Of a stretch of DNA of 52,216 nucleotides, positions 3,954-42,221 are shown one piece after another. The notes under the pieces are model-generated. The model searched no databases. It was not told the DNA's origin and worked only from the letters and a program-made list of their open reading frames with translations. The translations under genes and the position numbers were made by a program. This DNA comes from a virus (lineage: Duplodnaviria > Caudoviricetes), in the IMG/VR virus record IMGVR_UViG_3300003177_000008, positions 1-52,216 of that record, one strand, 5' to 3'. Positions within the stretch are counted from its first letter, which is position 1, and the number at the start of each line of letters is the position of its first letter.

Positions 3954-5366
3954 TTAAGCGTTATTTTCTCTTACTTCTGTAAGAGTATATGTTTTAGTTA
4001 TTTCACCATTTTTAAAAACAGTTTCAAGTACATCATAACTACCATTCTCAAAATCAATTCCAACCCTATCAACAAAATATGACTCGGTAGTTGGATTATA
4101 ATATGTAGTAATTTTACCTCTCTTGGATACTTTATTTGGAGCTGTTACAGGATCTTTATAGACATCAATATCTTTTCTAGCACCATTATCATTTATAGTA
4201 ATACTTGAACATTTTACAGCCCACCCTTGAGTATCTCTATCGTGTTGCTGCATAAGCCAACCACCACTACCAAAGGCAATATTTTCAGTACTATATCCAT
4301 TTTTAACAAGAATATCAAGCATAATCTTCATACTTTCCGTATTAATACCATCTCCCCAGATAATTCTCATTTTATTCCAAACCTTAAATCCTTTATTGTT
4401 TATTGTAAATGGAATTTCATTTCTTTCCATAATCTTAAGAGTCTCTGGAATTATTTCAGCTGGATTACCACTATCTGGACGAATTACAAAAATTGGGTAT
4501 TCTTCAGAATTGATTTTCTTTTGAAATTCACTATCCTGTTTAGTAATCGTATCAACACATTTGAAGTAATCATATGAGTCACAAACTGCTGCAATAATAG
4601 GTTTTCCTTTATTATTTTCGAGATGATTCATAATCATATCAAATTCATTTTCTTTTGTCCAAGAAGTTGTGCTTGAGTGTTCAGTAGCTGGAATACTATG
4701 AGCAATTTCATGTATATTTCCAAGATAATTTTGATACGTAAATTTAATACTTTCAAAATTATCAGTTCCCATAAATCCTGCAGCGAGATGCGCCATACCA
4801 CCAATACCTGCTGATTCAACACTACTTGAACCGCGATCTCCAAAGTTATGATAGCTATAAGCTACAAACGGATTATCTTGAGTTTTTTCTGCATATTCTT
4901 CAAGCATTTTTCTAACAAAATAGCTTCTTGTAGCAACATTAGATGTGTACCAAACTTTCATAAGAACTGTTTCCATCCAAGAAGCTACCCAAAATACCTT
5001 AGGATTAGTACTTTCAACTGTAAAAAGAACATTCTTAACTGGAATTACTTTACCTTCTGGAATAGCTTTAATTTCAACCGGAAGTTTACCTCGGAGTTCA
5101 GTTGCAATATATCTCCATCCATTGTACTCAAAATCAATTCCGTGAGCATCAGCATACATTTTAGCTTCATCCACTTCACTCATTGTAATTGGAGTACTAA
5201 AATATTGTTTTAGAATATATTGTAGACCAAAGAAAAGAGTCTTATCATAAACCTTTCCACTTCTTGCTTCAGCATAATCAAACATACTTATTGTATTACT
5301 TGGATATTGTTTTGGGTGACTGTACTTATAACTATCAGCCAACATAATTCTATTTACATTAATCAT
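3954..5366 (-). CDS. nadV: nicotinamide phosphoribosyltransferase
   Basis: ADSYKYSH, HNFGDRG, SIPATEHS, VIRPDSG, WGDGI, FGSGG, KDPVT motifs. Confidence 0.92.
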   Translation of the reverse strand: MINVNRIMLADSYKYSHPKQYPSNTISMFDYAEARSGKVYDKTLFFGLQYILKQYFSTPITMSEVDEAKMYADAHGIDFEYNGWRYIATELRGKLPVEIKAIPEGKVIPVKNVLFTVESTNPKVFWVASWMETVLMKVWYTSNVATRSYFVRKMLEEYAEKTQDNPFVAYSYHNFGDRGSSSVESAGIGGMAHLAAGFMGTDNFESIKFTYQNYLGNIHEIAHSIPATEHSSTTSWTKENEFDMIMNHLENNKGKPIIAAVCDSYDYFKCVDTITKQDSEFQKKINSEEYPIFVIRPDSGNPAEIIPETLKIMERNEIPFTINNKGFKVWNKMRIIWGDGINTESMKIMLDILVKNGYSTENIAFGSGGWLMQQHDRDTQGWAVKCSSITINDNGARKDIDVYKDPVTAPNKVSKRGKITTYYNPTTESYFVDRVGIDFENGSYDVLETVFKNGEITKTYTLTEVRENNA

Positions 5367-6415: not shown

Positions 6416-6821
6416 GATTTCATGACTTGCTATTTCTAGATTATTGAATCTATGTTTTTTTATAATCTATTAATTCATCTCTACTACCTAGAAGAACTAG
6501 TTCTTCTAAAACTAAAAATTCTGGTGTAGGAATTCTAGGAACTTTCACTTCTAGCCTATTAAATACCTCTTTAATATCAATAACAGGATTAATAGATATT
6601 AGTGGAATGTTATATCTTTCACATGCATTTCTAGCGAGATATGATCCTGTACTAGATGATATAATAAGATCATAACTTTTCATATTTTCTATTATTATTC
6701 TATAATCATTATCTTTTTCATAGTCTATTAGATTAAAATCAATTTTAGTATTTAATATATTTTCTAGAGTTTTAACTTTACTATTCGAACCTCTAAAACC
6801 ATTAACATATAGAATTTTCAT
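6384..6821 (-). pseudogene. YqiA-like alpha/beta hydrolase with internal deletion or frameshift
   Basis: ILYVNGF, SSSTG nucleophile region, INP, DELID; the His segment HRFNNLEIASHEILNF follows in another frame. Confidence 0.65.
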
Positions 6822-6915
6822 TTCATATCCTTCATATATTTAATTATATACTATATTATCTTAAAATCTGCTTAAATTTCTATTTAGTGGATGTATTAAA
6901 GTAGTGGTGGATTAA

Positions 6916-7216
6916 TGGTGGAGTAGTGGGGAATCGAACCCCAGTCTTAAATTATTTTTTCAGTTGATTTTTACAAGTTTTGAAGTAGGCACAAAAAAGT
7001 ACTAAAAAGTACTGTATGTTTTATCTCATTTACCCAAGAGATTGAGGTTCTAGATTCTGTTGCTAGGCTACTAGAAAGCCCCGTAGCATTAAGCTACAAG
7101 CGCCGCTGGCGTATAATCTGTGTTGTTTACAGTTATTTTTGTTAAGAATTTTAAGTTTTCTTAAAACTACTTGAATCAAAAGATAATCATAATCTAATCG
7201 AAACCTTGTCAACCCC
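6916..7216 (-). ncRNA. ssrA: tmRNA; tag (A)VNNTDYTPAALVA encoded at 7130-7089
   Basis: 5' GGGGTTGACAAGGTTTCGA; 3' GACTGGGGTTCGATTCCCCACTACTCCACCA with G3:U70; ATAACT before the resume codon. Confidence 0.93.
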
Positions 7217-7277
7217 ATAAGTATTAGGAGTTCTTTTATATAGCGTCGTTCCTAATACCAACGCAAAGTCTATCAAC

Positions 7278-7475
7278 TTATTTCATCATATTTTTAGCAA
7301 ATTGAGCCATCTTTCTGACGTGTCCATCATTACTCTTCAAGCCTGCTTCAACTGCCTTCATTGGAATTTCATCATCCATAGAATCTATAAATCCTTGTTT
7401 AATAGCCCATTTATGAAAAGCACCTTTCTTTAGTTGCTCTTCCTCATCTAATCTGAAGTACTGTAGAAAACTCAT
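7278..7475 (-). CDS. putative internal head protein
   Basis: TATAAATA late promoter at 7501-7508; N-terminus MSFLQYFRLDEE. Confidence 0.6.
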   Translation of the reverse strand: MSFLQYFRLDEEEQLKKGAFHKWAIKQGFIDSMDDEIPMKAVEAGLKSNDGHVRKMAQFAKNMMK

Positions 7476-7504
7476 ATTAATTCCTAGTTTTGGTATATAA
7501 TATT

Positions 7505-7632
7505 TATAGATTTAGAATATCCTACTAATCATAACCTACTAACCTTGGTCGTCTAGGACCTACTCAAAGTGTTCATTAATATTATTTACCCGATAATATA
7601 CATAGTGATTAATAAGATATTCTAAATCTATA
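7505..7632 (-). ncRNA. candidate structured RNA with about 27-bp closing stem
   Basis: Perfect 17-bp inverted repeat 7505-7521/7616-7632, extended by G-U pairs on the minus strand. Confidence 0.55.
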
Positions 7633-8149
7633 GTGGTCAAGCATTAGCTTCTCAGAGGTGTGACAAGGACAAGAACATTCACACTTGAGCCAAAAGATAT
7701 GTAAAGAATTTGCTAACCCGTGTCTTGTCGTTGTCGAGGGTATTCTTTACTCTTTTGAAACCACATGTAAAACTAAAATACCAATACGATTTATAAAACT
7801 AGAAAATACACCTAGATTATAATGCGTTGATATGTAATTATTAGCATTAATTTAAAGTTCAATTTCTTTGAATTAAAAATCGACTCATATTCCTCTTGGT
7901 TTTTACAACCGTAATCTGCTTAGGGACTAAACCCGAATCTCCACTTTCTCCAAAGTGACGTAATAAGTATTTTATACTAAGCAGGTTATTTTAATATAAG
8001 TCTAAGTGTCCTGAGTAAAAACACTTTAAAACCCTAATCTTCTCAAAGGCTTTTTTAAAGTGTTTAGCTCAATTTTAAAAATTCTATCTTTCTCTTTATA
8101 TAATATATTATAATATAAAGCTCCTTAAAAACAACTTAATATTATAATT

Positions 8150-8596
8150 TTATTTACTAAATTTATCAGCAGCTGTACTTGCACACCAAGAATCTGGCTT
8201 ACAAACTGGTTCTACACCAACAACACCCATAATATATCCTCGGGCTGCATGATAAGCAACATTAGAACCAGTTCCTTCCTTTGGATTTACATCAATATGT
8301 ATTTCAAAGTCTTTATCATAAAGAACATCTTCAAGAGCATTATATAGTTCTGTAACTTTTTCTACCTCCTTCATCATTCTATTAAATGGACGAGAAAGTT
8401 TTCCATCTGTTATGTTCTCAAAAGTAATATCAGCGAAAATCTTAGCTCCATTACATCCATTATAATGAAGAACTAATACGGTAGCGAACTTAACTCTTTT
8501 TTTCTTTATTCTCTGAGAATCTACTCCGAGATAAATTCTAGCGTTTGGATTCTCTTTAATAAATTCTTTTATATATTTTATGTCAAATTTTTCCAT
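8150..8596 (-). CDS. RNase H-like YkuK (DUF458) family protein
   Basis: IYLGVDSQ, EIHIDVN..GSN, KPDSWCASTAAD. Confidence 0.85.
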   Translation of the reverse strand: MEKFDIKYIKEFIKENPNARIYLGVDSQRIKKKRVKFATVLVLHYNGCNGAKIFADITFENITDGKLSRPFNRMMKEVEKVTELYNALEDVLYDKDFEIHIDVNPKEGTGSNVAYHAARGYIMGVVGVEPVCKPDSWCASTAADKFSK

Positions 8597-8611
8597 TTTT
8601 CTTTTCTTATT

Positions 8612-8689
8612 TGGTATCCCTGATAGGACTCGAACCTATGACCCTCGGAGTCGAAATCCGACGCTCTAATCCATCTGAGCTACAGAGAT
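8612..8689 (-). tRNA. tRNA-Arg(TCG)
   Basis: Cloverleaf, loop TT-TCG-AC, encoded CCA. Confidence 0.92.
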
Positions 8690-8694
8690 ATTTT

Positions 8695-8768
8695 TGGAGT
8701 CGATAGAGAATTTCGAAATCTCAATCCTGAGGTTGCAACTCAGTGCCTTTCCTTTTGGCTATATCGAC
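8695..8768 (-). tRNA. tRNA-Cys(GCA)
   Basis: Cloverleaf, U73, CCA. Confidence 0.92.
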
Positions 8769-8775
8769 ATATTTT

Positions 8776-8861
8776 TGGTGGATAGTATAGGATTCGAACC
8801 TATGCATGTTTTACCATGACGGGTTAGCAACCCGCTCCTTTAACCACTCAGGCAACTATCC
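8776..8861 (-). tRNA. tRNA-Ser(GCT)
   Basis: Cloverleaf with long variable arm, CCA. Confidence 0.92.
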
Positions 8862-8866
8862 ATATT

Positions 8867-8940
8867 TGGCAGGGTATAGAAGAATCGAACTCCTGTTAAC
8901 GGGTTTGGAACCCGTTGTTCTACCATTGAACTAATACCCT
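8867..8940 (-). tRNA. tRNA-Trp(CCA)
   Basis: Cloverleaf, G73, CCA. Confidence 0.92.
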
Positions 8941-8947
8941 ATTTACT

Positions 8948-9018
8948 TGGTGCCTATCCCTGGAATCGAGCCAGGCTATTAGAAGTTATGAGCTTCTACT
9001 GTCACCTTGACGATAGGC
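8948..9018 (-). tRNA. tRNA(CAT), probably elongator Met, with atypical shortened D region
   Basis: GCCTATC/GATAGGC acceptor, loop CT-CAT-AA, T loop CTCGATT, CCA. Confidence 0.75.
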
Positions 9019-9019
9019 T

Positions 9020-9095
9020 TGGTGTGATCGCAGGGAATCGAACCCTGGTACCTCGAGTCACAGTCGAGTGTACTAACCACTGTACTACGACCACC
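9020..9095 (-). tRNA. tRNA-His(GTG)
   Basis: Cloverleaf, G-1 present, A73. Confidence 0.9.
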
Positions 9096-9131
9096 TCAAA
9101 AACTTCCTAAAAAATCTCTAAGGTGATTGTT

Positions 9132-9206
9132 TGGAGCGAACGAGGAATTTCGAAATCCCGACACCCGACTTGGAAGGACGGTGCTCTGCCTCTGAGCTAC
9201 GTTCGC
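9132..9206 (-). tRNA. tRNA-Gly(TCC)
   Basis: GCG start, U73, CCA. Confidence 0.9.
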
Positions 9207-9218
9207 ATATTAAAAATT

Positions 9219-9293
9219 TGGTGGTCTAAGCTGGATTCGAACCAACGACCTATCCGTTATGAGCGGAGGGCTCTACCACTGAGCTATTAGACC
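9219..9293 (-). tRNA. tRNA(CAT), probably Ile2 (lysidine type)
   Basis: Cloverleaf, CCGCTCATAACGG anticodon arm; identity inferred. Confidence 0.85.
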
Positions 9294-9375
9294 AAAGCGC
9301 TGTTTGTCTAATCACCTCCAGACAAACAAAAGAGGTTTCTTTCTTTCAAATGTTGCGCGCTAACATTATCAATAA

Positions 9376-9468
9376 AAGTTTATAAAGTTTTAGGGACTCG
9401 AGCCCTATATATACACCAGATCTTAATGGGGATCGAACCCAATACTAACCAATAGAACTTTAAAACTT
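9376..9468 (-). ncRNA. candidate RNA with two T-arms inside one closing stem
   Basis: TGGG-TTCGATC-CCCA and TAGGG-CTCGAGT-CCCTA inside AAGTTTTAAAGTT/AACTTTATAAACTT. Confidence 0.55.
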
Positions 9469-9578
9469 CGTTAAAGAAAATAGGAGATTAACTCCAAAGA
9501 ATATAAGTTATTTTTACTCTTTGGAAATAACCTTTTATATTTTTTATTATATAATAAAAAACTTAAGTCTTATTTAAA

Positions 9579-9665
<87 letters not shown>

Positions 9666-9671
9666 ATATTT

Positions 9672-9747
9672 TGGTGCATCCGGTGAGATTCGAACTCACA
9701 TTTTTCCGCTTAAAAGGCGGGTACCATAACCATTAGGTGACGTATGC
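9672..9747 (-). tRNA. tRNA-Lys(TTT)
   Basis: Cloverleaf with one acceptor mismatch, CCA. Confidence 0.88.
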
Positions 9748-9953
9748 GACGATAAACATTTCTTTATTTAAAGTCGCATCCGTGAACCTATGTCTATCAG
9801 TTCAGGCAACGACTATGATTTTTGAACTCTTCATAGTACCTCTTATTTTTAATTATTTTTTGACATCAATTTCTTGACGGATGGAAACTCATAAACCATC
9901 TATTTTTGTTTCGCTACACTGGAAGAAATATCATCTCCGCTCGATATGTTTTT

Positions 9954-10028
9954 TGGTACTCGATAGTAGATTCGAACTACTGACCAATTCCTTGTAAGGG
10001 AATCACTCTACCACTGAGTTAATCGAGT
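9954..10028 (-). tRNA. tRNA-Val(TAC)
   Basis: Cloverleaf, CCA. Confidence 0.92.
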
Positions 10029-10031
10029 ATT

Positions 10032-10107
10032 TGGTGGAGATATGCAGACTTGAACTGCACTCTCAAGTTTGCAAAACTTGTGTTCTACCCAGATGAACTA
10101 TATCCCC
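10032..10107 (-). tRNA. tRNA-Ala(TGC)
   Basis: GGGG start with G3:U70, CCA. Confidence 0.92.
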
Positions 10108-10109
10108 AT

Positions 10110-10285
10110 TATTTTAACTAAAAGAACATATAGTGCTGTCGACTTCTTCCTGGCCGGTCAATCGACGATGGATAACGATACACCGAAAGTGATGATATTA
10201 TGTACACTTAATCTTCTAAAACCACGCTCGCCACCTCTTACACGCGGAACTTCACTTTCTATATATGTTCTTTATAATTAAAATA
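10110..10285 (-). ncRNA. candidate structured RNA with long closing stem
   Basis: Inverted repeat 10121-10132/10262-10273 plus outer TATTTTAA/TTAAAATA; GC-richer internal hairpins. Confidence 0.5.
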
Positions 10286-10548
10286 CTACTTAACTCTTAA
10301 TAGCTTAAGATTTTTAGAATTAATTTTTTGATACGGATTATTATATCTTCTATTATAATATCTTCTCAAATTTTTAATTTTTTAATGCCATCTTCATAGC
10401 TATATGCTACAATGAATCCTCGTTTTGCTAAACTAAAGGCATCATCTTTCTTAATATAATCAAAATATCTTCCATTATATAGTTTAAAATGTTTTTTATC
10501 AATATAATCTGTAATTATATAACTTCTCATATTTTATCCTTCTCTTCT

Positions 10549-10826
10549 TGGTATCCTCATATGGAATTGAACCACAAGTATTTGGCTAAGTTTTACCATA
10601 GCATATCTCGTTAATATACCCTATATTATATTAAACCATTCAATAGGGGAATAAATAACAAAAGTCCGTTTTAAGGTTTTCCAGATTACTATGTTGTATT
10701 TTCTTTCTTATATAAGTCGGTTTAGAACTTCTATAATACTCGAAAATTCGTAACTCTATTCTAAATCAATTACTTTTAGAATTTCCTATTTCAAGGACCA
10801 AATACTCCAAACCGCTTGGTGAGGAC
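10549..10826 (-). ncRNA. 278-nt tRNA-headed RNA with tmRNA-like topology and a non-Ala acceptor
   Basis: GTCCTCA/TGAGGAT-A-CCA acceptor, D-like hairpin, 9-bp helix, T arm, 212-nt insert. Confidence 0.7.
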
Positions 10827-10837
10827 ATTCTTAATTA

Positions 10838-10912
10838 TGGCGCCCCTGAAGAATTTCGAAATCTCGACCTCTCGGCTGACAACCGAGCGCTCTTCCTCTG
10901 AGCTACAAGGGC
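10838..10912 (-). tRNA. tRNA-Asp(GTC)
   Basis: Cloverleaf, G73, CCA. Confidence 0.92.
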
Positions 10913-10918
10913 ATATTT

Positions 10919-10994
10919 TGGCTCCGATAGCAGGGCTCGAACCTGCGACCCGATGATTAACAGTCATCTGCTCTACCAACTGAGCTATATCGAA
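10919..10994 (-). tRNA. tRNA-Asn(GTT)
   Basis: Canonical cloverleaf, U1-A72, G73. Confidence 0.93.
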
Positions 10995-11001
10995 ATATTT
11001 T

Positions 11002-11078
11002 TGGTTGCTGAAATGCCAGAGTTGAACTGACTTAACAAGGGTTATGAGCCCTCGTGAGATTCCGACCTCCCACCAGCG
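11002..11078 (-). tRNA. tRNA-fMet(CAT)
   Basis: C1:A72 mismatch; GGG/CCC at the anticodon stem. Confidence 0.85.
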
Positions 11079-11086
11079 ATATTTAA

Positions 11087-11162
11087 TGGTGCCTACGGTT
11101 GGTTACGCTCCAACTCCTTTAGTTTTTCAGACTAACGATTCTACTAAGTTATCTTCGTAGGC
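11087..11162 (-). tRNA. tRNA-Phe(GAA) with non-canonical D and T loops
   Basis: All stems pair; T loop AGCGTAA. Confidence 0.8.
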
Positions 11163-11175
11163 ATTGCTTATAATA

Positions 11176-11262
11176 TGGAGGATGTGGTGAGACTCGAACT
11201 CACAACGGTTTGACCCGCACACGGTTTTCAAGACCGGCTGTCTCCCTACTGACTACACATCC
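11176..11262 (-). tRNA. tRNA-Ser(TGA)
   Basis: Long variable arm, loop CT-TGA-AA, CCA. Confidence 0.88.
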
Positions 11263-11374
11263 AAGTAATTTCAAATAACTCTTTTTCTATACATATTATA
11301 TAGAAATAAAGCTTAAAATTCAATAAATCGAGCGATATTTACTAAATATTTCAATATCTTTTAAAAACTCGATT

Positions 11375-11560
11375 GTAAGATTTATAAGGATTTTCTTACT
11401 TCCTTTGTCTAGGTTCCCGCTTACATCTTCTAGATATAGAAATCTATTAATGCTGAAAGGCGCTGATTGCCTGCATTTTCTCACCACTTTGTTTTTCGAA
11501 GAAACAAAGAAAACTTTCTCAAAGAGACTGTAAACACTCAAAATGCAAAGTGCTTATTAA
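11375..11560 (-). ncRNA. candidate multi-pseudoknot RNA
   Basis: Several nested and crossing complementary segments between tRNA genes. Confidence 0.5.
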
Positions 11561-11577
11561 TATCTTTGTGTAAAATA

Positions 11578-11662
11578 TGGTGCATCTACCCAGATTTGAA
11601 CTGGGACATCCTAGGATAATGAGTCTTAAGCCCATCGCGTCTGCCAATTCCGCCACAGATGC
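11578..11662 (-). tRNA. tRNA-Leu(TAA)
   Basis: Class II cloverleaf, CCA. Confidence 0.92.
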
Positions 11663-11670
11663 ATTTTTAA

Positions 11671-11747
11671 TGGTCTGTGTAGTAGGGATCGAACCTACGA
11701 CCTCTCCACCCCAAACGGAGTATTCTACCAATCTGAACTATACACAG
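11671..11747 (-). tRNA. tRNA-Pro(TGG)
   Basis: C1-G72, A73, CCA. Confidence 0.92.
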
Positions 11748-11755
11748 ATACTTTC

Positions 11756-11831
11756 TGGTGACGCTATCGGGACTCGAACCCGAAATACTACCGTGAAAGG
11801 GTAGTGAGATAACCAATTTCTCCATAGCGCC
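11756..11831 (-). tRNA. tRNA-Glu(TTC)
   Basis: Cloverleaf, CCA. Confidence 0.92.
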
Positions 11832-11832
11832 A

Positions 11833-11908
11833 TGGATGAGGTAGAGGGTCTCGAACCCCCGACATACGCGCTCAAAACACGTCGTTCTACCAACTGAACT
11901 ATACCTCA
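11833..11908 (-). tRNA. tRNA-Gln(TTG)
   Basis: U1-A72, CCA. Confidence 0.9.
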
Positions 11909-11913
11909 ATATA

Positions 11914-12000
11914 TGGTGGAAGTGGTAGGATTTGAACCTACTATCCTAAAAAGGCACGGTTTTACAGACCGCTGTGACTCTCCAACTTCACCGCACTTCC
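11914..12000 (-). tRNA. tRNA-Tyr(GTA)
   Basis: Class II cloverleaf, CCA. Confidence 0.92.
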
Positions 12001-12004
12001 ATTT

Positions 12005-12088
12005 TGGCTCAGGTAGTAGGATTTGAACCTACATTGTCAAAAGACACTGATTAACAGTCAGCTGCATTACCAAGTCTGCCATACCTGA
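12005..12088 (-). tRNA. second tRNA with Asn anticodon (GTT), long variable arm
   Basis: Loop CT-GTT-AA; arm GTC-TTTT-GAC-AAT; G73, CCA. Confidence 0.85.
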
Positions 12089-12093
12089 ATATT

Positions 12094-12167
12094 TGGTCCT
12101 CAGGGAAAGAATTGAACTTTCGTCTTTCGATTATCGGTCGAACGTTCTACCATTGAACTACCCGAGG
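12094..12167 (-). tRNA. tRNA-Ile(GAT)
   Basis: Cloverleaf, loop CC-GAT-AA (C33), CCA. Confidence 0.88.
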
Positions 12168-12172
12168 ATTTA

Positions 12173-12249
12173 TGGTGCCGACATTCAGATTCGAACTGAA
12201 AGTCTTTCGCTTACAAGGCGAATGCATTAGCCAATTTTGCTATGTCGGC
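12173..12249 (-). tRNA. tRNA-Thr(TGT)
   Basis: Cloverleaf, CCA. Confidence 0.92.
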
Positions 12250-12324
12250 AAGTTAAAATTTAGAGTGATTTTTGATTGTTTTGAGGAATCAGAAACCACT
12301 TAGTAGCTTCTGATTTGAAAGAAG

Positions 12325-12468
12325 CTACTTGGTTAAAATCTCCTGATTTAGAATCGGAAAATTCCCGAGTCTAGAATCATTAGAATTTTTCACCATAAAT
12401 AAGGCCGTACTATATGCAGGTTTACAATATGAATGTTGTTTTTCTACTATATACGATAAACGTAACAT
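12325..12468 (-). CDS. 47-aa putative leader peptide of the tRNA operon (MLRLSYIVEKQHSYCKPAYSTALFMVKNSNDSRLGNFPILNQEILTK)
   Basis: AAGGA SD at 12479-12483; promoters directly upstream; stop codon lies inside a hairpin arm. Confidence 0.6.
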   Translation of the reverse strand: MLRLSYIVEKQHSYCKPAYSTALFMVKNSNDSRLGNFPILNQEILTK

Positions 12469-12491
12469 GTACTTTTTTTCCTTATTTTTAG

Positions 12492-12701
12492 TTTATTTAT
12501 ATTTTTAAAGAAACATATATTTTACTATATATCCCTTTAACTTCTATAATTATATAATAATAATCTTAAACCAAGATTAATTATATAATGTTTTATTTAT
12601 ATTTTTAAAGAAACATATATTTACTATATATCTCTTTAACTTCTATAATTATATAATAATAATCTTAAACTAAGATTAAATATATAATGTTTTATTTATA
12701 T
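12492..12701 (-). repeat. tandem about 100-bp promoter unit (two copies plus a partial) heading the tRNA operon
   Basis: Near-identical units; TATAAATA at 12494, 12594 and 12693; TTTAAG..TATAAT in each full unit. Confidence 0.85.
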
Positions 12702-12729
12702 CTAGATAAATTGTTAAAAAATTTCTTAG

Positions 12730-13122
12730 TTATTTTATAACATTAACTAGATCATCTAGTTTTAGCTTGCTTGGTGATATAGAAAAATAGAAATCTAGCG
12801 AGCTGGGTAGCGGCTTATCATCTGTAGTATCATAATCAGTAACGCCAAAATAATCTTGCAACTTCTCAAGATCTTTATCTGCTGCAATACTTTTTAATAC
12901 TCTTGAATATTTAGTTTTATATTCAGAACCAACAACATACCAGCCATTGTCTAATTGATATACTGTCCATTTTCTTTCTGCACCATCGTAAAAACTACCA
13001 TTAGTAGAAATTTTTATAGTATATGTTTTTAATTTCTTACCTTTAAAACCTTTAGATTTTAAAAGCTTTAAAATATTGGCAGGTGTAACATTTTCTGACT
13101 CTAATAGTTCTCTAAATTTCAT
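12730..13122 (-). CDS. putative internal head protein
   Basis: N-terminus MKFRELLES. Confidence 0.65.
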   Translation of the reverse strand: MKFRELLESENVTPANILKLLKSKGFKGKKLKTYTIKISTNGSFYDGAERKWTVYQLDNGWYVVGSEYKTKYSRVLKSIAADKDLEKLQDYFGVTDYDTTDDKPLPSSLDFYFSISPSKLKLDDLVNVIK

Positions 13123-13654
13123 AAATATCCTTATTTATTCCTAACTTATTACATTTGTTTTTAAAATCCTGATAGTCTCTCATAAAAACTTCATCATCTA
13201 AAAAGTATGATACTAAATCCTCTGGAGTGCTATTTATAACTATCTGCATTAAGGATGTAGAGCTTAAAATCTTTCTAATTCTCTTCTCTATTTCAGCTTC
13301 TGATGGAGTAACTAGAATAGGAATTTGAAAACTAACTACATATATATTATCTTCACTAAGATTGTCTTCTATACGTATCTTTTCACCACCAAAAGATTTC
13401 GCGTCCTTACTTAATTGTTTATTTACTCTATCATCAGTTATTCTAACGCTAACAGAGTCTTTATTAATACAAAATACTATAAAATATCTTGATGATTCTA
13501 GATAAGTACACTCTCCTTCCTCATCTATTATTTTAGTATTTCCATATTTCTTTTTTAATTTATCTAAAAATTGAGATTTAATATCCTGTACTTCACCTTT
13601 AAAGATATATTTAACACCTTCTTCTATATTAATAAATTTTGATTTAAAACTCAT
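13112..13654 (-). CDS. putative internal head protein
   Basis: N-terminus MSFKSKFINIEEG. Confidence 0.55.
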   Translation of the reverse strand: MSFKSKFINIEEGVKYIFKGEVQDIKSQFLDKLKKKYGNTKIIDEEGECTYLESSRYFIVFCINKDSVSVRITDDRVNKQLSKDAKSFGGEKIRIEDNLSEDNIYVVSFQIPILVTPSEAEIEKRIRKILSSTSLMQIVINSTPEDLVSYFLDDEVFMRDYQDFKNKCNKLGINKDIYEI

Positions 13655-14331: not shown

Positions 14332-15475
14332 TTACCAGTCATCTAGGGTATCTGTAGTTCTATATACATTCCATTTTAGTGGTTTAGTAATAATTTCTAT
14401 CTTCTTAAGAAAATCTTTCTCCCAGTGTTGTTCATAATCTGCAAATTCTCTAAGATTAATCTCTTTACTAAATCTAGGATCTGTAAAACCTAAGGCACTT
14501 ATAACTCTATATTTATTAGGTTCTCTTACATATACATAACTAAGACTATCTCCTCTTTCAATAGGTGGAAATCTTCCCTCTATACCTAATTCTTTAACTA
14601 GTCTATTATGCTCTAGCGCTGCAGTACTTCCAAGTGGAGCAGTTAGCCAACTTCCATTCTCTTTCTGTCGTTTGTATTTACCATCTTTTTTAATATAATC
14701 TAAATTATTTACTTTAGCAATACGTACAAACTCCACAGGATCTATCTCCCCAAAATCTCTTCTAGCACTATTAATATAATCTTGTAAAGCTCTCTGATCT
14801 TTATCTAAAACTATATCTAATACAGGTCTTAATTTTTGCTTTAAAAACTCCGGAGTACTATATGATACTAAAGATACACCAGTTACTTTCATCTTAGGCT
14901 TAGCTAGAATATGACCATCATTTACTATAACTCTGGTGAAGTATCTTTTACTAGCAAGAGATACAAACCCTCTTGTAATTACCTCATTTTCCATAGCTAG
15001 AGCTGAAGGTTCTCTTAGATTAAAGGTATCTCCTATTTTCTTTAGAGTATCATTAATAATTTTTTGAAGTTTCTCTTCCGAAAACTTCTTAATAAATTTA
15101 ATCTTATCATCATCAGTAAGATCTTTAAATTTTGGAAGTTTCATTAGATTTTGTAAACATACATATCCACTATCTGTATCTGACTGCATAATAAATTCTA
15201 ACTCTTCTCTTTTAGTTTCTAGTCCACAAATATCAGATAAATAATCATTAATAGCCATCATAACCATCTGATTACTCATACGACCACTAGTAGTAATACT
15301 AGCACCTGTTAAAGTACCATTAGCGAATGGGTTGGAATTTAAAGAACTTACCCCGTATGAGCTGTTAAAGTAAAACCTTTAAAACAGTTGAACGATTTTC
15401 ATGAAAATCCTCCTGCTGCTGTATTTTATGTTTAAGACTCAATAATTCAGAGTCAGATAGTTTCTTTATATTCAT
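14332..15475 (-). CDS. gp43: B-family DNA polymerase C-terminal subunit (gp43B-like); needs a +1 frameshift at 15370-15364
   Basis: AAGGAG then ATG at 15475; MNIKKLSDSELL...LKVLL then, in +1 frame, NSSYG...TTSGR (motif B), QSDTDS (motif C), SKRY. Confidence 0.85.
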
Positions 15476-15567
15476 ATATTCTCCTTTTTATATTATATTA
15501 TATAGTAAATTTCTAAAAGTATTATTAAACTTCTAATAAATATAAATAGTTTATAAAGGTATTTAAA

Positions 15568-16488
15568 ATGATTATAACAAAAGAAAATTATGAAGATATA
15601 TTAGTAGGTAAAAGTCAAAGAATCTCTAGAACAAAAAAGAAACTATATAACTTACCAAAGGATAAATGGTTTAAAAGTATAGCAGAGGCTATTTATTGTT
15701 TTAAACATAATATAGAGGATGAACCTCATTGTTATTGTGGTAATAAATTAGAGTTCGTAAGTACTCTAGAAGGATATCCTTCTCATTGTAGTCTTAAATG
15801 TGCTAGAAGTAAAGAAAGACCTACAGACAATAATGCTAAAGTTCTTACAAAAGATAATGTAAAAGAAATATATTCCGACTCAGGAAAGGTCAAACAAGGA
15901 GCTAGAAATAAGTTTATCATCCCTACAAATTTATACTGGTGTAAATTAATATCGGAAGCAGCTTGTTGTATTATAAACGATATTAAAGAACCTCCAAGAT
16001 GTAAGTGTGGTAAATTGGTTAGTTTCGCTCAGGGAGAGGGTTATAGAAGATTTTGTGGACCTCAATGCTCTAATGGAGATGAAACTACTAAAGACCGAAG
16101 AGCTAAAACTCTTTTAAAGTACTACGGAGTAGAAAATGCATCTCAAGTAGTAACAGGCCTCACTAACTCTAAGAAATATTCACCTGAAAGATATCATCTT
16201 CAAGGCTATTTATATATAATGAGAAGTAAATCGAATAATATGATTAAGGTGGGAGTTTCTACTAATCCAAGAGGTAGGCTAGGTAATTTAAAAAAATATT
16301 GGATAGATCTAAAGCTTGAATTTATATCTTGTTGGATATCTCATGTTTATATGTATGAGGACTTTTTACATAAAAAATATGGAGAATATAATATGAGATT
16401 ATTAGAAGGAGATGGTAGAACTGAATTTTTTCAGGAACATATTTTAAACGATATTAAAGAGGATATCAAAAGTCTAGATATCTTCTAG
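15568..16488 (+). mobile_element. free-standing homing endonuclease (Zn-binding repeats plus GIY-YIG/T5orf172-like C-terminus)
   Basis: Two CxCG..CxxxC repeats; GYLYIM..IKVGVS..RL..GRTEFF; late promoter at 15541. Confidence 0.75.
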
Positions 16489-19400
16489 ACCCCTTCTTTT
16501 TATTTCCTTTTTAATATCCTCTAATACACCCTCTAATCTCTGAGCCTCTCTCTTCTCCTTAACCCTTTCTAAGAAGAATCTCTCCATCTGAGACGAAAAC
16601 ATACTCTGTTCATCTATTCTATAAAAGTATCCATTAGCAGTAACACATACATTATGCTTCTTAAGAACCTTAGAAATCTCTTCAGAGTTTTCTAATAAAT
16701 TAGTATAATACTCTCTTTCCTCAACAAGATCATTAATCTCACCATTATGTTTTTTAACTATTTCTCCTAATGGTAGGTAGCGACCCTCTTCTATAACGAT
16801 TCCGTCTTTTTCAACCTTATCCGGATACTCTGTTCTATTTAGTTTTTCTTTTATAAAATAATTAAAATATTTTTTTCTTATTTCTTTCAGATCTGGATGA
16901 AGTTCATAATCCTTTACCAAAGTATCTCCACCTATATTAAACGCTCTAATAAGTGAAGGATATAGGGATGTAAAGTCAAAAGATGATACAAAATCATATT
17001 TCCCTGGAACCGTTCGAACCCATCCAGCTAAGAACTGTACATCTTCTTCTGAATATTGTTGTTTTAGTGGTAGAACTAGATTTTTCTTCATAGACTCTTT
17101 AAACATTAAAGCCACCCAGTGTTTTTGAGTACCCCAGTTATCGTCAGGTGATACTCCACAAAAGTATGCAATTTGTAGGTGAGAATCTAAATACTTAGTA
17201 AGATCATCAAGCTCTACAAGAATCTCAACATCTCTCAAAGAATAATCTACGAATCTGTCATATACTACCTGTTCTAACATTTTCTTATTTTCAGGTGTAG
17301 GATCATCTCTATACCTCTTCTGAGCATCAAATATAGGATCTTCTCCTATCTGAGGCTCCTCTAGAGGAAATATGTATCCGTCTCCCGTATAACTACCATC
17401 GAAATTTTTATAAGAGGAGTTATCAATTTTTTGACTTAGACCGAAATGATTAGCTACATTCTTTAAACTATAACTAGGAAGTCCTAAGAAGCCATACTTT
17501 AAAGCTAACTCTCTATAATCAAGTAGTAATCTTCCCCTCCAAAATACCTCAACTCCATCCATTCCATCTAGTGTGTGAGTATCTTTACCATTAACTACAC
17601 CTAGAGGAGATAATCTATTAACATTAGGCATATCTATATAGCTATTTCTCTTATTTAGTTCTTCTTTATAGTTACCATTAAATCCATCAAGAACTCTAGC
17701 TATTCTATTAGTTAAGTAAGGAAAGTCAAACGTTTTACAGTTATGTGTATATATTCCCTGATACTCAAAGTAGTGATTACTAGTCTCTATATCTCTCATT
17801 AGTACACTATCACCCTCTTTTATATCTTTTATACGAATAAAAAAACTACACTTATCTGTTATAAAATATGTAGTATTAAATTGTTTTGATTTTTTTTCTA
17901 GCTTTTCTAACCTTTTAATATTAGTAAATCTCTCTTTAATTTTTATACTATCTTTTAAAATATCTAGAGACTCCGAATCCATGAATGGTCTTAGATACGT
18001 ATTATTCTCTAAAACAAAAGATCCATTCCATCTTAATAATTCTGATACGTTAGAGATATCATTATTAAAATTACAAAAAGTTCCATCTATAGAGCCATCT
18101 CCATCTACTAATCCTGAGTAAAAATATAAAAATTGCTTTTTAGATAGCTGACTTAGTAAGTATATATCTATACATTTTTTAGATTTAGCATTAATATGAT
18201 CATATATTAAAGCTTTAGCTATTAGAAATCTAGCATTACTTAAAAATGCAAATTTAAAAATATATGAATCTTTATGATCTTCAGACTCGAACTTTTTGTA
18301 TTTAAACTTATATTTATCTTTAAGATTTTCAACTACTTTTATATTAGTATTAGTAATAGATGCTTCAGATTTATAACTAGATGTTCCGTCTGTATACCAT
18401 AAACCTGCTAGATACAAAATATCTTCAGATATAACATCATCTAAACGTTCTAATATAGATGTTGTAGGCCTTTTATCTCCATTATATCCGTTATTAAATA
18501 TTTTAATAGATTTACTTCTTTCTATAAATTTAATAACCTCATTCTTTCCTAATTTTTCTAGTATATGTTTACTACTAAAAAAATCCATTTTCTTCTGATA
18601 GATCTCTCCCTCGTAATATTTAGATAGTTTTCTAACTATTTGAGTATCCCTAGTATAAATAAAAATCCCCTTCTTATGAAGAATATCTAAATTTTCAATT
18701 AGTAGTTGTCTATACGTAACATCTCTATTAGTATTATTATGAATTTTATGTTCTAGATATATATAATGATTATCTAGAGAATTAGAAATATTCTCTACAG
18801 TCATGTCCTCTTCTATTAATTCTCCAGAATTATAAGGTGTAAAATATTTACCTTTCGGTACTCTATATGTTTTAAATATATGATCCTTAGATGATGAAAC
18901 TTTCATTCCGTTATCTAATATAATATCAAAAGATTTTTTCTTACTAATAGGAAATATATTTTCTACATATACTCTATCTTCTGACAATCTATCTTTATAT
19001 TTTATATCTGTAAGCTTCTTAATTTTATTATCTGTCCAAATATTAGAATCCAGAGGAATGCAGTTAAAACCAGAAATAATAGAAGGATTATGTTTCTCTA
19101 AAAGCTTTATGAAAAATTCTAGAAGATCTCTCTCATCTTCAATCTTTATAAATTTTACATTATCCTTTTCAAATTTTCCTGTAAAATTCTTTCTTCCTAG
19201 GACTATATATTGATTCGTAAAATTATCATAAATCTGAATCATTGTAATCTCTTCAGGAGCCATATCTGCATGAGGAAAGTGTTGCACTGCATAGTTAGAT
19301 CTAGTCTCAATATCTAGCATCCAAATTCTATGAGTATGAAAACTACTTTCAGAATCAGGAAATGCTCTTTGTAGGAAGGTATGACCTAAATCTAAATATC

Positions 19401-19782
19401 CGAAAGCATCATCTTCAAAGATAGTTTCCTCTATTTCTATCTCTTCTCCATCATACTCAATAGTTTTAATTTCACCTGTCTTTATTTTAATATTTTTTAC
19501 AAATTTATTAAACTCATCTAATGATTCAAAAGATTTTTTAGTAAGAGGTATTTTCTTATCTAAGTAAGACTTATACGGGGAATTTGGTGATTTATTATCT
19601 GAAATAAATATATCAGGAATACTATAATCTGTAACATCTCTAAAAAAAGATTCTTTAGTCTTAGGATCGAAAAGTCTTACTACTACTTGTTTAATTTTTT
19701 TAGTTCTTTTTCCTGATGGTATCTCTTTAGTTAGTGTAAAGATACTTTCATACTGATATTTAGAATAATCTGGTAAATTCAT
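16474..19782 (-). CDS. gp43: B-family DNA polymerase N-terminal subunit (exonuclease plus motif A), with intein
   Basis: LDIET (ExoI), GFN..FDFPY (ExoII), YSLRD (ExoIII), FDFTSLYPS (motif A). Confidence 0.92.
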   Translation of the reverse strand: MNLPDYSKYQYESIFTLTKEIPSGKRTKKIKQVVVRLFDPKTKESFFRDVTDYSIPDIFISDNKSPNSPYKSYLDKKIPLTKKSFESLDEFNKFVKNIKIKTGEIKTIEYDGEEIEIEETIFEDDAFGYLDLGHTFLQRAFPDSESSFHTHRIWMLDIETRSNYAVQHFPHADMAPEEITMIQIYDNFTNQYIVLGRKNFTGKFEKDNVKFIKIEDERDLLEFFIKLLEKHNPSIISGFNCIPLDSNIWTDNKIKKLTDIKYKDRLSEDRVYVENIFPISKKKSFDIILDNGMKVSSSKDHIFKTYRVPKGKYFTPYNSGELIEEDMTVENISNSLDNHYIYLEHKIHNNTNRDVTYRQLLIENLDILHKKGIFIYTRDTQIVRKLSKYYEGEIYQKKMDFFSSKHILEKLGKNEVIKFIERSKSIKIFNNGYNGDKRPTTSILERLDDVISEDILYLAGLWYTDGTSSYKSEASITNTNIKVVENLKDKYKFKYKKFESEDHKDSYIFKFAFLSNARFLIAKALIYDHINAKSKKCIDIYLLSQLSKKQFLYFYSGLVDGDGSIDGTFCNFNNDISNVSELLRWNGSFVLENNTYLRPFMDSESLDILKDSIKIKERFTNIKRLEKLEKKSKQFNTTYFITDKCSFFIRIKDIKEGDSVLMRDIETSNHYFEYQGIYTHNCKTFDFPYLTNRIARVLDGFNGNYKEELNKRNSYIDMPNVNRLSPLGVVNGKDTHTLDGMDGVEVFWRGRLLLDYRELALKYGFLGLPSYSLKNVANHFGLSQKIDNSSYKNFDGSYTGDGYIFPLEEPQIGEDPIFDAQKRYRDDPTPENKKMLEQVVYDRFVDYSLRDVEILVELDDLTKYLDSHLQIAYFCGVSPDDNWGTQKHWVALMFKESMKKNLVLPLKQQYSEEDVQFLAGWVRTVPGKYDFVSSFDFTSLYPSLIRAFNIGGDTLVKDYELHPDLKEIRKKYFNYFIKEKLNRTEYPDKVEKDGIVIEEGRYLPLGEIVKKHNGEINDLVEEREYYTNLLENSEEISKVLKKHNVCVTANGYFYRIDEQSMFSSQMERFFLERVKEKREAQRLEGVLEDIKKEIKRRGLEDI
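17740..19062 (-). mobile_element. 441-aa intein with LAGLIDADG endonuclease in the ExoII motif
   Basis: Junctions GFN|CIPLDS and IYTHN|CKTFD; LAGLWYTDG and YSGLVDGDG. Confidence 0.92.
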
Positions 19783-42198: not shown

Positions 42199-42221
42199 GA
42201 ACTAGTTAGTATCTACTAACC

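What the first reader, a model, noticed from the sequence alone, without database searches (positions are those of the whole stretch)
12287..12483. Codon-sampling leader peptide with alternative hairpins heading the tRNA operon: candidate pan-tRNA attenuator
Seen: between the promoter repeats and the first tRNA lies an SD-led 47-codon ORF (12468-12325). It uses 33 different codons and 19 amino acids (no Trp), including GC-rich codons that look rare in this AT-rich phage (TCG, ACG, GCC, CTC, GGG, CCG, ACC). Its TAG stop lies in arm A (12320-12329), which pairs with arm B (12302-12311, 10 bp). B can instead pair with arm C (12303-12315 with 12287-12299, 13 bp including G-U). Known: amino-acid attenuators couple leader translation to mutually exclusive hairpins, and host defences can cleave tRNAs. 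Inference: stalling on any depleted tRNA would flip the switch and raise expression of the 25 tRNAs. Caveat: B:C has no clean poly-U tail.
Basis: partly seen in the sequence, partly recalled or inferred. Interest (0 to 1): 0.85.

Follow-up and report, generated by a model that had tools for sequence, protein, structure and literature searches.

The report
Translated leader switch heading phage tRNAs
A short translated reading frame that ends inside a set of competing RNA hairpins sits in front of this phage's tRNA genes, and related phages suggest that such leaders let a phage tune its tRNA supply to how well ribosomes are decoding.

Summary
The 47-codon ORF (12468-12325, minus strand), its SD, the TAG inside arm A, the perfect 10-bp A:B hairpin and the rival B:C pairing are all present.

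The module recurs in three other uncultured phages (L005, L018, L145), and an analogous one of unrelated sequence occurs in L147. In each, an open frame of 40-54 codons stops in or beside arm A, the peptides are unrelated, and B:C forms once a ribosome covers the stop.

The codon-sampling claim fails its own test. W has 33 distinct codons against 29.4±2.4 in composition-matched random ORFs (P 0.10), and the relatives lie below random. No hairpin in W carries a U tract.

In relatives L147 and L144, however, four SD-led leaders match the tRNAs that follow (39 of 44 residues in one, P 6e-10). The two L144 leaders are followed by canonical terminators whose 5' arm can pair with the end of the ORF.

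My best reading (0.5) is a ribosome-mediated attenuator of the tRNA-tmRNA operon, with W as a generalist version whose termination step is unresolved. All evidence is computational.

The parts
12521..12701 (-). Two tandem copies of a ~99-nt promoter unit. Each holds a sigma-70-like promoter (the 25-mer at 12569-12545 and at 12668-12644, with -10 TATAAT) and a TATAAATA motif (12601-12594 and 12700-12693).
   Evidence: Direct repeats D2 and D4. The 25-mer gives 2 matches in the window against 0 expected. The same 25-mer precedes an ordinary gene in the records of 175,720 and 177,534 bases, which are the lengths of Campylobacter phages CPt10 and CP220.
12494..12501 (-). Third TATAAATA motif (T4-type late-promoter-like), 33 nt before the leader ATG.
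   Evidence: 19 motifs in the window, several of them 12-40 nt ahead of gene starts, including the portal gene. The motif is conserved at the same place in L005 and L018, and in a similar form in L144, L145 and L147.
12479..12483 (-). Shine-Dalgarno AAGGA, 10 nt before the ATG.
   Evidence: AAGGA or AGGAG stands at the same place in all eight leaders aligned.
12325..12468 (-). Leader ORF of 47 codons plus TAG. Its codon usage is random-like, and the peptide matches no family.
   Evidence: No Pfam or PHROG hit. The only peptide relatives are the L005 and L018 peptides.
12320..12329 (-). Arm A, which contains the TAG stop (12327-12325).
12302..12311 (-). Arm B. It pairs with A (10 bp), or, extended to 12315, with C.
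12287..12300 (-). Arm C. It pairs with B (12-13 bp, -14.2 kcal/mol when A is masked) or with D.
12264..12277 (-). Arm D, new in this report. It pairs with C at 13 of 14 positions, with one C-A mismatch.
12250..12289 (-). G-free tract of 40 nt with scattered C, running from within arm C to the base before tRNA-Thr. It holds no T run of 5 or more.
   Evidence: P 0.028 for a run of 37 or more in random 75-nt windows of this strand.
12173..12249 (-). tRNA-Thr(UGU), the first gene of the array of 23 tRNAs, which ends with a tmRNA at 7216-6916.

Best explanation
The element is a ribosome-mediated leader switch (attenuator) at the head of the phage's tRNA-tmRNA operon.

Transcripts from the tandem early-type and late-type promoters begin with a translated 47-codon leader. 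What matters is how fast the leader is read, not the peptide it encodes.

- Ribosome keeps pace with RNA polymerase and reaches the TAG inside arm A: it covers A, and B pairs with C as soon as C emerges. This is the B:C state, with D left single-stranded.
- Ribosome delayed anywhere in the leader, or absent: A:B forms first and C is then locked away by D. This is the A:B + C:D state.

Related phages have the same module with a canonical terminator. By analogy with them, A:B is the antiterminator and B:C the terminator-equivalent. Slow decoding would then raise transcription of the tRNAs, and fluent decoding would lower it. C:D would act as a latch that keeps the 'on' decision once it is made.

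Shown by computation:
- the anatomy;
- conservation of the open frame and of the three pairings;
- the ribosome-dependent switch in the predicted fold;
- matched leaders and terminators in relatives.

Inferred:
- that the ORF is translated;
- the direction of control;
- how B:C stops transcription in W, where there is no U tract. Rho loading on the 40-nt G-free tract is one candidate.

W's leader is a generalist (19 of 20 amino acids) in front of an array that serves all 20 amino acids. That fits a sensor of overall decoding capacity, but it is also close to what a random ORF would give.
For: 1. Anatomy: late-type promoter, SD, ORF, stop codon inside A. Free fold: A:B + C:D, -23.3 kcal/mol. 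With the RNA masked through stop+13, the best fold becomes B:C, -14.2 kcal/mol.

2. Open frame. It survives 2.0% (W), 1.0% (L005) and 1.4% (L018) of shuffles. By composition the chance is 5.9% for L145 and 8.2% for L147-1. The peptides do not align: W is 26-29% identical to L005 and L018 in an alignment with long gaps.
   - L005 against L018: 25 nt differences fall 7:10:8 over the three codon positions, counted by hand from the list.
   - dN/dS is 0.41.
   - Codon usage is random-like: 33 distinct codons against 25.0±2.8 in windows of real genes.

3. Pairings across W, L005 and L018.
   - A:B has 2 pairs changed on both sides.
   - B:C has 1 changed on both sides and 1 changed on one side.
   - The U-to-C change in C follows the A-to-G change in B and creates a mismatch with D.

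4. B:C forms with a ribosome on the stop in 5 of 5 leaders. In W, L005, L018 and L147-1 it is the overall best fold. In L145 it wins only while D is not yet transcribed. The L147-1 arms are unrelated in sequence: a 12-bp perfect B:C.

5. Relatives found through the array's PF04308 gene.
   - Of 48 ORFs in tRNA-array gaps, 4 pass Bonferroni for enrichment in the amino acids of the next tRNA block. All 4 are SD-led and lie 108-196 nt upstream of the block.
   - The four are L147-1 39/44 (P 6.4e-10; this set is the single best of 77,520 possible 7-amino-acid sets), L147-2 18/55 (2.5e-6), L144-1 13/35 (3.4e-4) and L144-2 14/27 (4.2e-4).
   - Each leader scores best against its own block.
   - Controls: 106 ORFs in six distant loci give a lowest P of 0.0048. 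22 ORFs in Vibrio phage phiKT1024 give a lowest P of 0.12.

6. Both L144 leaders are followed by a 15-bp stem plus a run of 8 T. In transcripts cut before the terminator's 3' arm, its 5' arm pairs with the ORF's last codons and stop codon.

7. All eight leaders share the same 5' layout: (T/C)ATAAATA, an A-rich stretch, SD, ATG.

8. The element is single-copy in the window and in the 183-kb record that holds L005. The three hairpins after gp23 are not cross-complementary (read).
Against: - W, L005, L018, L145 and L147-1 have no U tract after B:C or C:D. The defining terminator of a classical attenuator is therefore missing, and the output step is unknown.
- Codon diversity and rare-codon content equal those of random ORFs.
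- W's leader is not enriched for its first tRNA block (24/46, P 0.27). Nor are L005 (P 0.66), L018 (P 0.56) or L145 (9/39, P 0.91). L145's leader uses all 20 amino acids although ARAGORN finds only 11 tRNAs in the locus.
- Covariation rests on one branch (W against L005 and L018), and shuffle controls are not significant: 56/500 and 183/500.
- A resembles C and B resembles D, so B:C could be a by-product of a duplicated hairpin.
- The whole tRNA module of L005 and L018 is 88-98% identical even between tRNAs. That pair therefore says little about constraint. The ORF staying open over their 25 differences has a chance of 0.16.
- dN/dS of 0.41 does not exclude a small protein.
- In L144, full-length folds keep the terminator at all 7 tested ribosome positions in both leaders. 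The antiterminator is seen only in truncated transcripts.
- I chose the block limits myself (gaps over 150 nt).
- The tRNA-Tyr of L147 appears only at a relaxed ARAGORN threshold and not in Rfam.
- Ser and Leu, which are common amino acids, carry much of the L144 signal.
Confidence: 0.5

Rival explanations
1. This is an ordinary small late gene. Its two 3' hairpins stabilise or delimit its mRNA after RNase P cuts at tRNA-Thr, and they do not regulate the tRNAs. The B:C complementarity is a by-product of an old tandem duplication of one hairpin.
For: - The late-promoter, SD and ATG geometry is the same as for real late genes.
- Gene callers predicted this ORF on 3 contigs.
- dN/dS is 0.41.
- gp23 is also followed by tandem hairpins without a U tract.
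- A resembles C in 8 of 10 letters and B resembles D in 7 of 10 (read).
- There is no terminator in W.
Against: - The peptides are unalignable between lineages, have no family, and show no excess of third-position changes.
- C follows B rather than D at the one informative column.
- L147-1 has the same A:B / B:C logic with unrelated sequence.
- The gp23 hairpins are not cross-complementary.
- Matched leaders in L147 and L144 are hard to explain if the ORFs are unrelated small genes.
Confidence: 0.25
2. This is the reader's strict version: a leader built to sample nearly all codons, so that shortage of any single tRNA flips an intrinsic terminator (B:C) off.
For: - W-type leaders hold 19, 19, 18 and 20 of the 20 amino acids. 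L145 has all 20 in 40 residues (P 0.008). The combined P is 0.008 for W, L005 and L145.
- The arrays of W, L005 and L018 serve all 20 amino acids.
- The direction of control matches the L144 logic.
Against: - Codon diversity: W P 0.10, L005 P 0.86, L018 P 0.76, combined 0.10-0.23.
- Rare codons are as in random ORFs.
- The amino-acid signal is post hoc and falls to 0.026-0.047 when L147-1 (12 of 20 amino acids) is included.
- B:C has no U tract.
- L145's leader is not matched to its 11 tRNAs.
Confidence: 0.15
3. The tandem hairpins act on RNA polymerase or on RNases, independently of translation. They could be a put-like processive antiterminator protecting a 5.3-kb untranslated operon from Rho, or an RNase III-type processing site. 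On this reading the ORF is secondary.
For: - Two stem-loops 1-2 nt apart stand just downstream of strong promoters and ahead of a long untranslated, structured operon.
- The sequences of the C and D arms are nearly invariant across W, L005 and L018.
Against: - No Rfam family matches the leader at E up to 1.
- This reading does not explain why the frame stays open, why the stop sits in arm A in every lineage, or why leaders in L147 and L144 match their tRNAs.
- The HK022 put comparison is recalled from memory and was not tested.
Confidence: 0.1

Closest known systems
Ribosome-mediated transcription attenuators of amino-acid operons (trpL, hisL, pheL, ilv and leu leaders). Recalled, and described in the abstracts of PMC1183508 and PMC3082878, which I saw only in search listings.
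   Same: A short SD-led leader ORF, mutually exclusive helices, a helix that overlaps the end of the ORF so that ribosome position chooses the fold, and a peptide of no importance in itself. In relatives L144 and L147 the leader is enriched for the cognate amino acids, and in L144 a canonical terminator is present.
   Different: The genes controlled are tRNAs, not biosynthetic enzymes, and the owner is a phage. W has no run of regulatory codons and no U-tract terminator. The stop codon lies in the first arm, so a ribosome at the stop frees arm 2. In trp it covers arm 2. W also has an extra arm D.
The pheST (pheM leader) attenuator of E. coli, where charged tRNA-Phe controls a translation-apparatus gene. 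Recalled, not checked here.
   Same: Feedback from decoding of leader codons to the supply of a component of the translation apparatus.
   Different: It controls a synthetase rather than tRNA genes, uses a run of Phe codons, and has a canonical terminator.
Rho-dependent leader-peptide switches (tnaC, mgtL, corL, toiL upstream of topAI). Recalled; the review PMC12360218 was seen only in a search listing.
   Same: Translation of a leader decides whether an unstructured, G-poor RNA stretch is exposed. No intrinsic terminator is needed. As recalled, toiL senses stalling at many positions, which is the closest parallel to a 'general decoding' sensor.
   Different: No rut site or Rho dependence is shown here. 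The G-free tract is only 40 nt and is followed by structured tRNAs.
Leaders of tRNA blocks in related uncultured phages L144 and L147
   Same: The same 5' layout ((T/C)ATAAATA, A-rich stretch, SD, ATG), ORFs of 28-56 codons, structure beginning at or just after the stop codon, and a position 108-196 nt ahead of a tRNA block (75 nt in W).
   Different: Those leaders are specialists matched to the next tRNA block. L144 has canonical terminators. W is a generalist without one.
T-box riboswitches.
   Same: An RNA leader that reads tRNA status and controls translation-related genes.
   Different: A T-box binds uncharged tRNA directly and needs no ORF. There is no Rfam T-box match in the leader.

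Membership tests
Ribosome-mediated transcription attenuator (trp/his type) | Short leader ORF with a ribosome-binding site, upstream of and co-oriented with the controlled genes | tested here: met
   ORF 12468-12325, AAGGA 10 nt before the ATG, tRNA-Thr starting 75 nt after the stop.
Ribosome-mediated transcription attenuator (trp/his type) | Frame kept open in relatives while the peptide sequence is free to change | tested here: met
   W, L005, L018, L145 and L147-1 have frames of 40-54 codons. The chance of staying open is 1-8% each. The peptides do not align.
Ribosome-mediated transcription attenuator (trp/his type) | Regulatory codons cognate to the product of the controlled genes | tested here: inconclusive
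   W: 24/46 residues for its first block, P 0.27, and codon diversity P 0.10. A generalist leader before an array for all 20 amino acids cannot show enrichment. The feature is met in relatives: L147-1, L147-2, L144-1 and L144-2.
Ribosome-mediated transcription attenuator (trp/his type) | Mutually exclusive helices, with the choice set by a ribosome at the end of the leader | tested here: met
   Predicted folds with and without masking. This is computation only.
Ribosome-mediated transcription attenuator (trp/his type) | One alternative is an intrinsic terminator (G+C-rich stem followed by a U tract) | tested here: not met
   No T run of 5 or more between the stop and tRNA-Thr, and no terminator-like site in the leader. 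The feature is met in L144: 15-bp stems followed by a run of 8 T.
Ribosome-mediated transcription attenuator (trp/his type) | Read-through responds to leader translation or tRNA charging | not testable with these tools
   No RNA run holds the sequence, and no host is known.
Rho-dependent leader-peptide attenuator | C-rich, G-poor unstructured stretch exposed in one conformer | tested here: inconclusive
   W has a 40-nt G-free run (P 0.028). L145 has 37 nt and L147-2 has 41 nt, but L005 and L018 have 23-24 nt. D is single-stranded only in the B:C state.
Rho-dependent leader-peptide attenuator | Termination depends on Rho | not testable with these tools
   This needs an in vitro or in vivo assay.
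T-box riboswitch and other Rfam cis-regulators | Match to a curated covariance model | tested here: not met
   cmscan of 6500-13500 at E up to 1 gave only tRNA, tmRNA and chance matches, with nothing in 12250-12500.
Intrinsic terminator of a small gene | Hairpin followed directly by a U tract | tested here: not met

The most novel reading that the evidence does not exclude
A clade of T4-like phages regulates its own tRNA genes by ribosome-mediated attenuation. Each tRNA block carries a leader peptide that reports how well the ribosome can decode the amino acids whose tRNAs lie downstream. Specialist leaders are seen in L147 and L144, and a generalist leader heads the 23-tRNA array of this window. 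Loss of tRNA function, for example through host anticodon nucleases or starvation, would then switch on phage tRNA synthesis.
Probability: 0.4. Interest if true: 0.9.

Novelty: new variant of a known kind. Interest (0 to 1): 0.78.

Why it matters
Why phages carry tRNA arrays, and how they express them, is still debated. Current proposals are codon compensation and escape from tRNA-cleaving defences (the abstract of PMC10264068, seen only in a search listing).

A leader that couples decoding capacity to transcription of the phage's own tRNAs would be the first attenuator known to me that controls tRNA genes. Three full-text searches listed no paper describing one.

It would give a direct, testable link between tRNA depletion and a phage counter-response. 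It would also provide a compact natural sensor of translation speed. The specialist leaders in L147 and L144 make the idea testable with single amino acids.

Tried and rejected
- blastn of the leader against 50,697 phage records: no match.
- Exact hairpin pattern in IMG/VR: one chance hit, in a GC-rich contig without tRNAs.
- Upstream 130-aa protein and the PolB C-terminal piece as single queries in IMG/VR: no relatives.
- A relaxed arm pattern gave chance hits only:
  - 12 of the 13 metagenome stretches (the 13th was L018);
  - all 11 genome-contig stretches;
  - all 114 matches re-examined by script in the loci.
- Peptide profile searches of 5.8 billion and 1.84 billion proteins: only the three known peptides. 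Two long repetitive proteins also matched; I judged them spurious without checking.
- Covariance model R1: one copy in the window and one in the record that holds L005. The three records with the lengths of Campylobacter phages gave nothing. One hit at E 0.18 lay far from any tRNA. L145 was recovered at E 0.033.
- Sequencing runs: no RNA holder was listed. A hydrothermal-vent DNA run holds a relative about 95% identical, but its contigs do not cover 12170-12403.
- Enrichment of W's, L005's, L018's and L145's leaders for their first tRNA block: none.
- The same test in six distant loci and in Vibrio phage phiKT1024: nothing.
- Pairing of free arm D with tRNA-Thr: no complement found by eye.
- boxA-like and put-like readings: recalled only; no model was available.
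The ENA and Logan contigs of closer relatives (P0002 81%, P0003 72%) therefore could not be read.

Full report
**What the window is.** The window is an IMG/VR contig of 52,216 bases, estimated to be 24% complete. It encodes T4-type portal and major capsid proteins, a family-B DNA polymerase split into two ORFs, ribonucleotide reductase, a ligase and an NAMPT-like enzyme. Its G+C content is 26-37%.

Its polymerase is at most about 31% identical to any cultured phage. The best matches are Campylobacter phages. A near relative occurs in a run labelled hydrothermal vent metagenome.

On the minus strand, 23 tRNA genes run from 12249 down to 8612. A PF04308 RNase H-like gene (8596-8150) follows, and then a tmRNA (7216-6916).

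**The observation.**
- The ORF 12468-12325 has 47 codons, 33 of them distinct, and 19 amino acids.
- AAGGA lies 10 nt before the ATG.
- The TAG lies inside arm A (12329-12320).
- A pairs perfectly with B (12311-12302).
- B extended (12315-12303) pairs with C (12299-12287) over 13 bp including two G-U.

Three additions:
- A TATAAATA motif lies 33 nt before the ATG. In this window such motifs stand 12-40 nt before several real genes, including the portal gene. The leader therefore looks like a normally initiated late message. Two further copies of this motif and two sigma-70-like promoters lie in a tandem ~99-nt repeat upstream.
- A fourth arm D (12277-12264) pairs with C at 13 of 14 positions. 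The free RNA folds as two adjacent hairpins, A:B and C:D.
- No T run of 5 or more lies between the stop and tRNA-Thr. Instead there is a 40-nt G-free tract.

**Is it more than chance?** Shuffling the ORF's own letters leaves the frame open in 2.0% of trials, and the other two frames hold 5 stops each.

Codon diversity is high compared with real genes of this phage: 33 against 25.0±2.8, with 0.9% of 221 windows reaching 33. It is ordinary for a random stop-free ORF of the same composition: 29.4±2.4, P 0.10. The rare GC-rich codons are likewise as frequent as in random ORFs: 9 against 8.4±2.6.

So the ORF is open by selection, but its codons are not adapted and are not specially diverse.

**Relatives.** Five other loci carry a comparable leader.

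- *L005.* A profile of the polymerase C-terminus found L005 in a 183-kb IMG/VR contig. It shows the same order: polymerase, the same 25-nt promoter core, TATAAATA, SD, a 54-codon ORF, TAG inside arm A, arms B, C and D, then tRNA-Thr.
- *L018.* An arm pattern found L018 in a metagenome contig, with the same layout.
- *L144, L145 and L147.* A profile of the array's PF04308 protein found these three.
- *L145 in detail.* It has a 40-codon ORF ending in a TAG inside a recognisably homologous arm A, then B, a GAAA loop and C.
- *L147 in detail.* It has a 45-codon ORF whose TAA stands one base before an 11-bp hairpin of unrelated sequence. The loop and 3' arm of that hairpin are perfectly complementary over 12 bp to the next segment.

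The peptides of these leaders do not align. They match no family and have no other relatives in 5.8 or 1.84 billion proteins.

**Limits of the L005-L018 pair.** Their polymerases are only 50% identical. Their whole tRNA modules, spacers included, are 88-98% identical. The 85% identity of the leader ORF is therefore not evidence of constraint. Its 25 differences fall 7:10:8 over the codon positions (counted), dN/dS is 0.41, and staying open has a chance of 0.16. The informative comparisons are W against L005/L018, L145 and L147.

**Pairings.** Between W and L005/L018:
- A:B keeps all its pairs through two double changes.
- B:C keeps its pairs through one double change and one single change.
- C:D has no covariation, and in each phage it keeps one internal mismatch.
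- The U-to-C change in C matches the A-to-G change in B and mismatches D.

With three sequences the shuffle controls cannot reach significance (56/500 and 183/500).

Folding with the RNA masked through 13 nt after the first base of the stop codon turns the best structure from A:B + C:D into B:C:
- W: -14.2 kcal/mol.
- L005: -16.5 kcal/mol.
- L018: -17.5 kcal/mol.
- L147-1: -12.5 kcal/mol for B:C alone, in the truncated transcript.

In L145, B:C (-16.0) wins only while D is not yet transcribed. A ribosome five or more codons upstream leaves A:B and C:D in place.

**What the relatives add.** I tested every ATG ORF of 20 or more codons in the gaps of the six arrays (48 ORFs). The test asked whether each ORF is enriched in the amino acids of the tRNA block that follows, with blocks split at gaps over 150 nt. 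Four pass a Bonferroni threshold. All four are SD-led and lie 108-196 nt before their block.

| Leader | Residues from the block's amino acids | P |
|---|---|---|
| L147-1 | 39 of 44 | 6.4e-10 |
| L147-2 | 18 of 55 (Asn + Gln) | 2.5e-6 |
| L144-1 | 13 of 35 (Ser, Trp, Val) | 3.4e-4 |
| L144-2 | 14 of 27 (His, Arg, Ser, Leu) | 4.2e-4 |

- In L147-1 the seven amino acids are those of the block Tyr, Glu, Ala, Asp, Ile, Ser, Thr. Of 77,520 possible seven-amino-acid sets, this is the single best.
- The highest count in 4,960 windows of real proteins is 31.
- Each leader scores best against its own block.
- Controls are clean. 106 ORFs in six more distant loci give a lowest P of 0.0048. 22 ORFs in Vibrio phage phiKT1024 give a lowest P of 0.12.
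- Caveats: the tRNA-Tyr of L147 is called only at a relaxed threshold and not by Rfam. The block limits were my choice. Ser and Leu are common residues.

Both L144 leaders are followed by textbook terminators, each a 15-bp stem followed by a run of 8 T. In transcripts cut before the terminator's 3' arm, its 5' arm pairs with the last codons and stop codon of the leader. A ribosome that reaches the stop would block this antiterminator, and a delayed ribosome would allow it. In full-length folds the terminator always wins (7 of 7 positions in both leaders), so this reading is kinetic.

All eight leaders share the 5' layout (T/C)ATAAATA, A-rich stretch, SD, ATG.

**Reading for the window.** By position, layout and logic, W's leader belongs with these modules. 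C:D is then best explained as a latch that removes C once A:B has formed.

Two things remain unproven for W:
- *How B:C reduces transcription.* There is no U tract in W, L005, L018, L145 or L147-1. The G-free, C-containing tract that is single-stranded only in the B:C state hints at Rho, but weakly: P 0.028 in W, and shorter tracts in L005 and L018.
- *Whether the leader is built to sample many tRNAs.* Codon diversity says no. Amino-acid diversity (19, 19, 18 and 20 of 20) gives only a post hoc combined P of 0.008-0.047. W-type leaders are not matched to their first blocks.

**Rivals.** There are two main alternatives:
- A small late protein with stabilising 3' hairpins (0.25). This fits the gene-like start and the hairpins after gp23. 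It does not fit the unconserved peptides, the C-follows-B change, the unrelated but equivalent L147 structure, or the matched leaders.
- A translation-independent RNA element (0.1). This leaves the maintained frame unexplained.

**Novelty.** Three full-text searches listed no paper describing leader-peptide control of tRNA genes. I saw only listings and abstract openings. Supplements were not consulted. The mechanism class is classical, but its use on tRNA genes, by a phage, and with specialist and generalist leaders, appears to be new.

No expression data exist for this sequence.

Noticed in passing
window 6916-7216 (-); L005 16942-17229; L144 8060-8417; L157 3356-3744: These phages encode their own tmRNA at one end of the tRNA array. 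In W its tag peptide ends in ALVA.
   Followed up: partly
window 8150-8596 (-): A PF04308 RNase H-like protein sits inside the tRNA array. Relatives were found in 14 IMG/VR loci. Of the 10 scanned for tRNAs, 8 have tRNA genes nearby. It also occurs in 80 cultured-phage records, 58 of them Vibrio phages, including KVP40 and close relatives. It is a candidate tRNA-processing or repair factor.
   Followed up: partly
window 14332-19782: The family-B DNA polymerase is split into two ORFs (16474-19782 and 14332-15279). A T5orf172-domain ORF lies on the other strand between them (15568-16488), and the N-terminal piece has a weak LAGLIDADG match. L005 and L018 have single polymerase ORFs of 1006 and 1000 aa.
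   Followed up: no
window 12545-12569 and 12644-12668; L009 2316-2340; L010 3149-3173: A 25-nt promoter core is identical to one upstream of an ordinary gene in records with the lengths of Campylobacter phages CPt10 and CP220. The stretch 12638-12754 has far higher depth than its flanks in three metagenome runs, because many other contigs share it. This suggests a consensus promoter of a Campylobacterota-like host.
   Followed up: partly
window 42199-42290 (+): Three tandem hairpins without a U tract follow the major capsid gene. They are not complementary to one another. Canonical terminators seem scarce in this phage.
   Followed up: no
L005 12047-12407 and 12741-13114; L018 9869-10245 and 10658-11043: Spacers of 360-390 nt between tRNA blocks are 93% and 98% identical between two phages whose polymerases are 50% identical. 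The tRNA module is mosaic or recently exchanged, and the spacers may hold unknown elements.
   Followed up: no
L147 5914-5999: A tRNA-Tyr(GUA)-like gene with a long variable arm is called only at a relaxed ARAGORN threshold and is missed by Rfam.
   Followed up: partly
window 10995-11086 (-): The gap between tRNA-Asn and tRNA-Phe resembles the stretch of L005 that holds a tRNA-Met. Relaxed ARAGORN calls a Met tRNA in that block. This may be a 24th tRNA.
   Followed up: no
window 3954-5366 (-): A nicotinamide/nicotinate phosphoribosyltransferase-like gene (NAMPT_N and NAPRTase domains) is present, which points to phage NAD salvage.
   Followed up: no
window 12685-13124: A relative about 95% identical, in a run labelled hydrothermal vent metagenome, joins 12685 to 13124 and so lacks the 130-aa ORF 12730-13122.
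   Followed up: no
L144 8718-8760 and 10730-10775: The two L144 leaders share a repeated tail of roughly 45-50 nt after their terminators, as read from the tails printed. This suggests that the leader modules are paralogous copies whose ORFs diverged.
   Followed up: no
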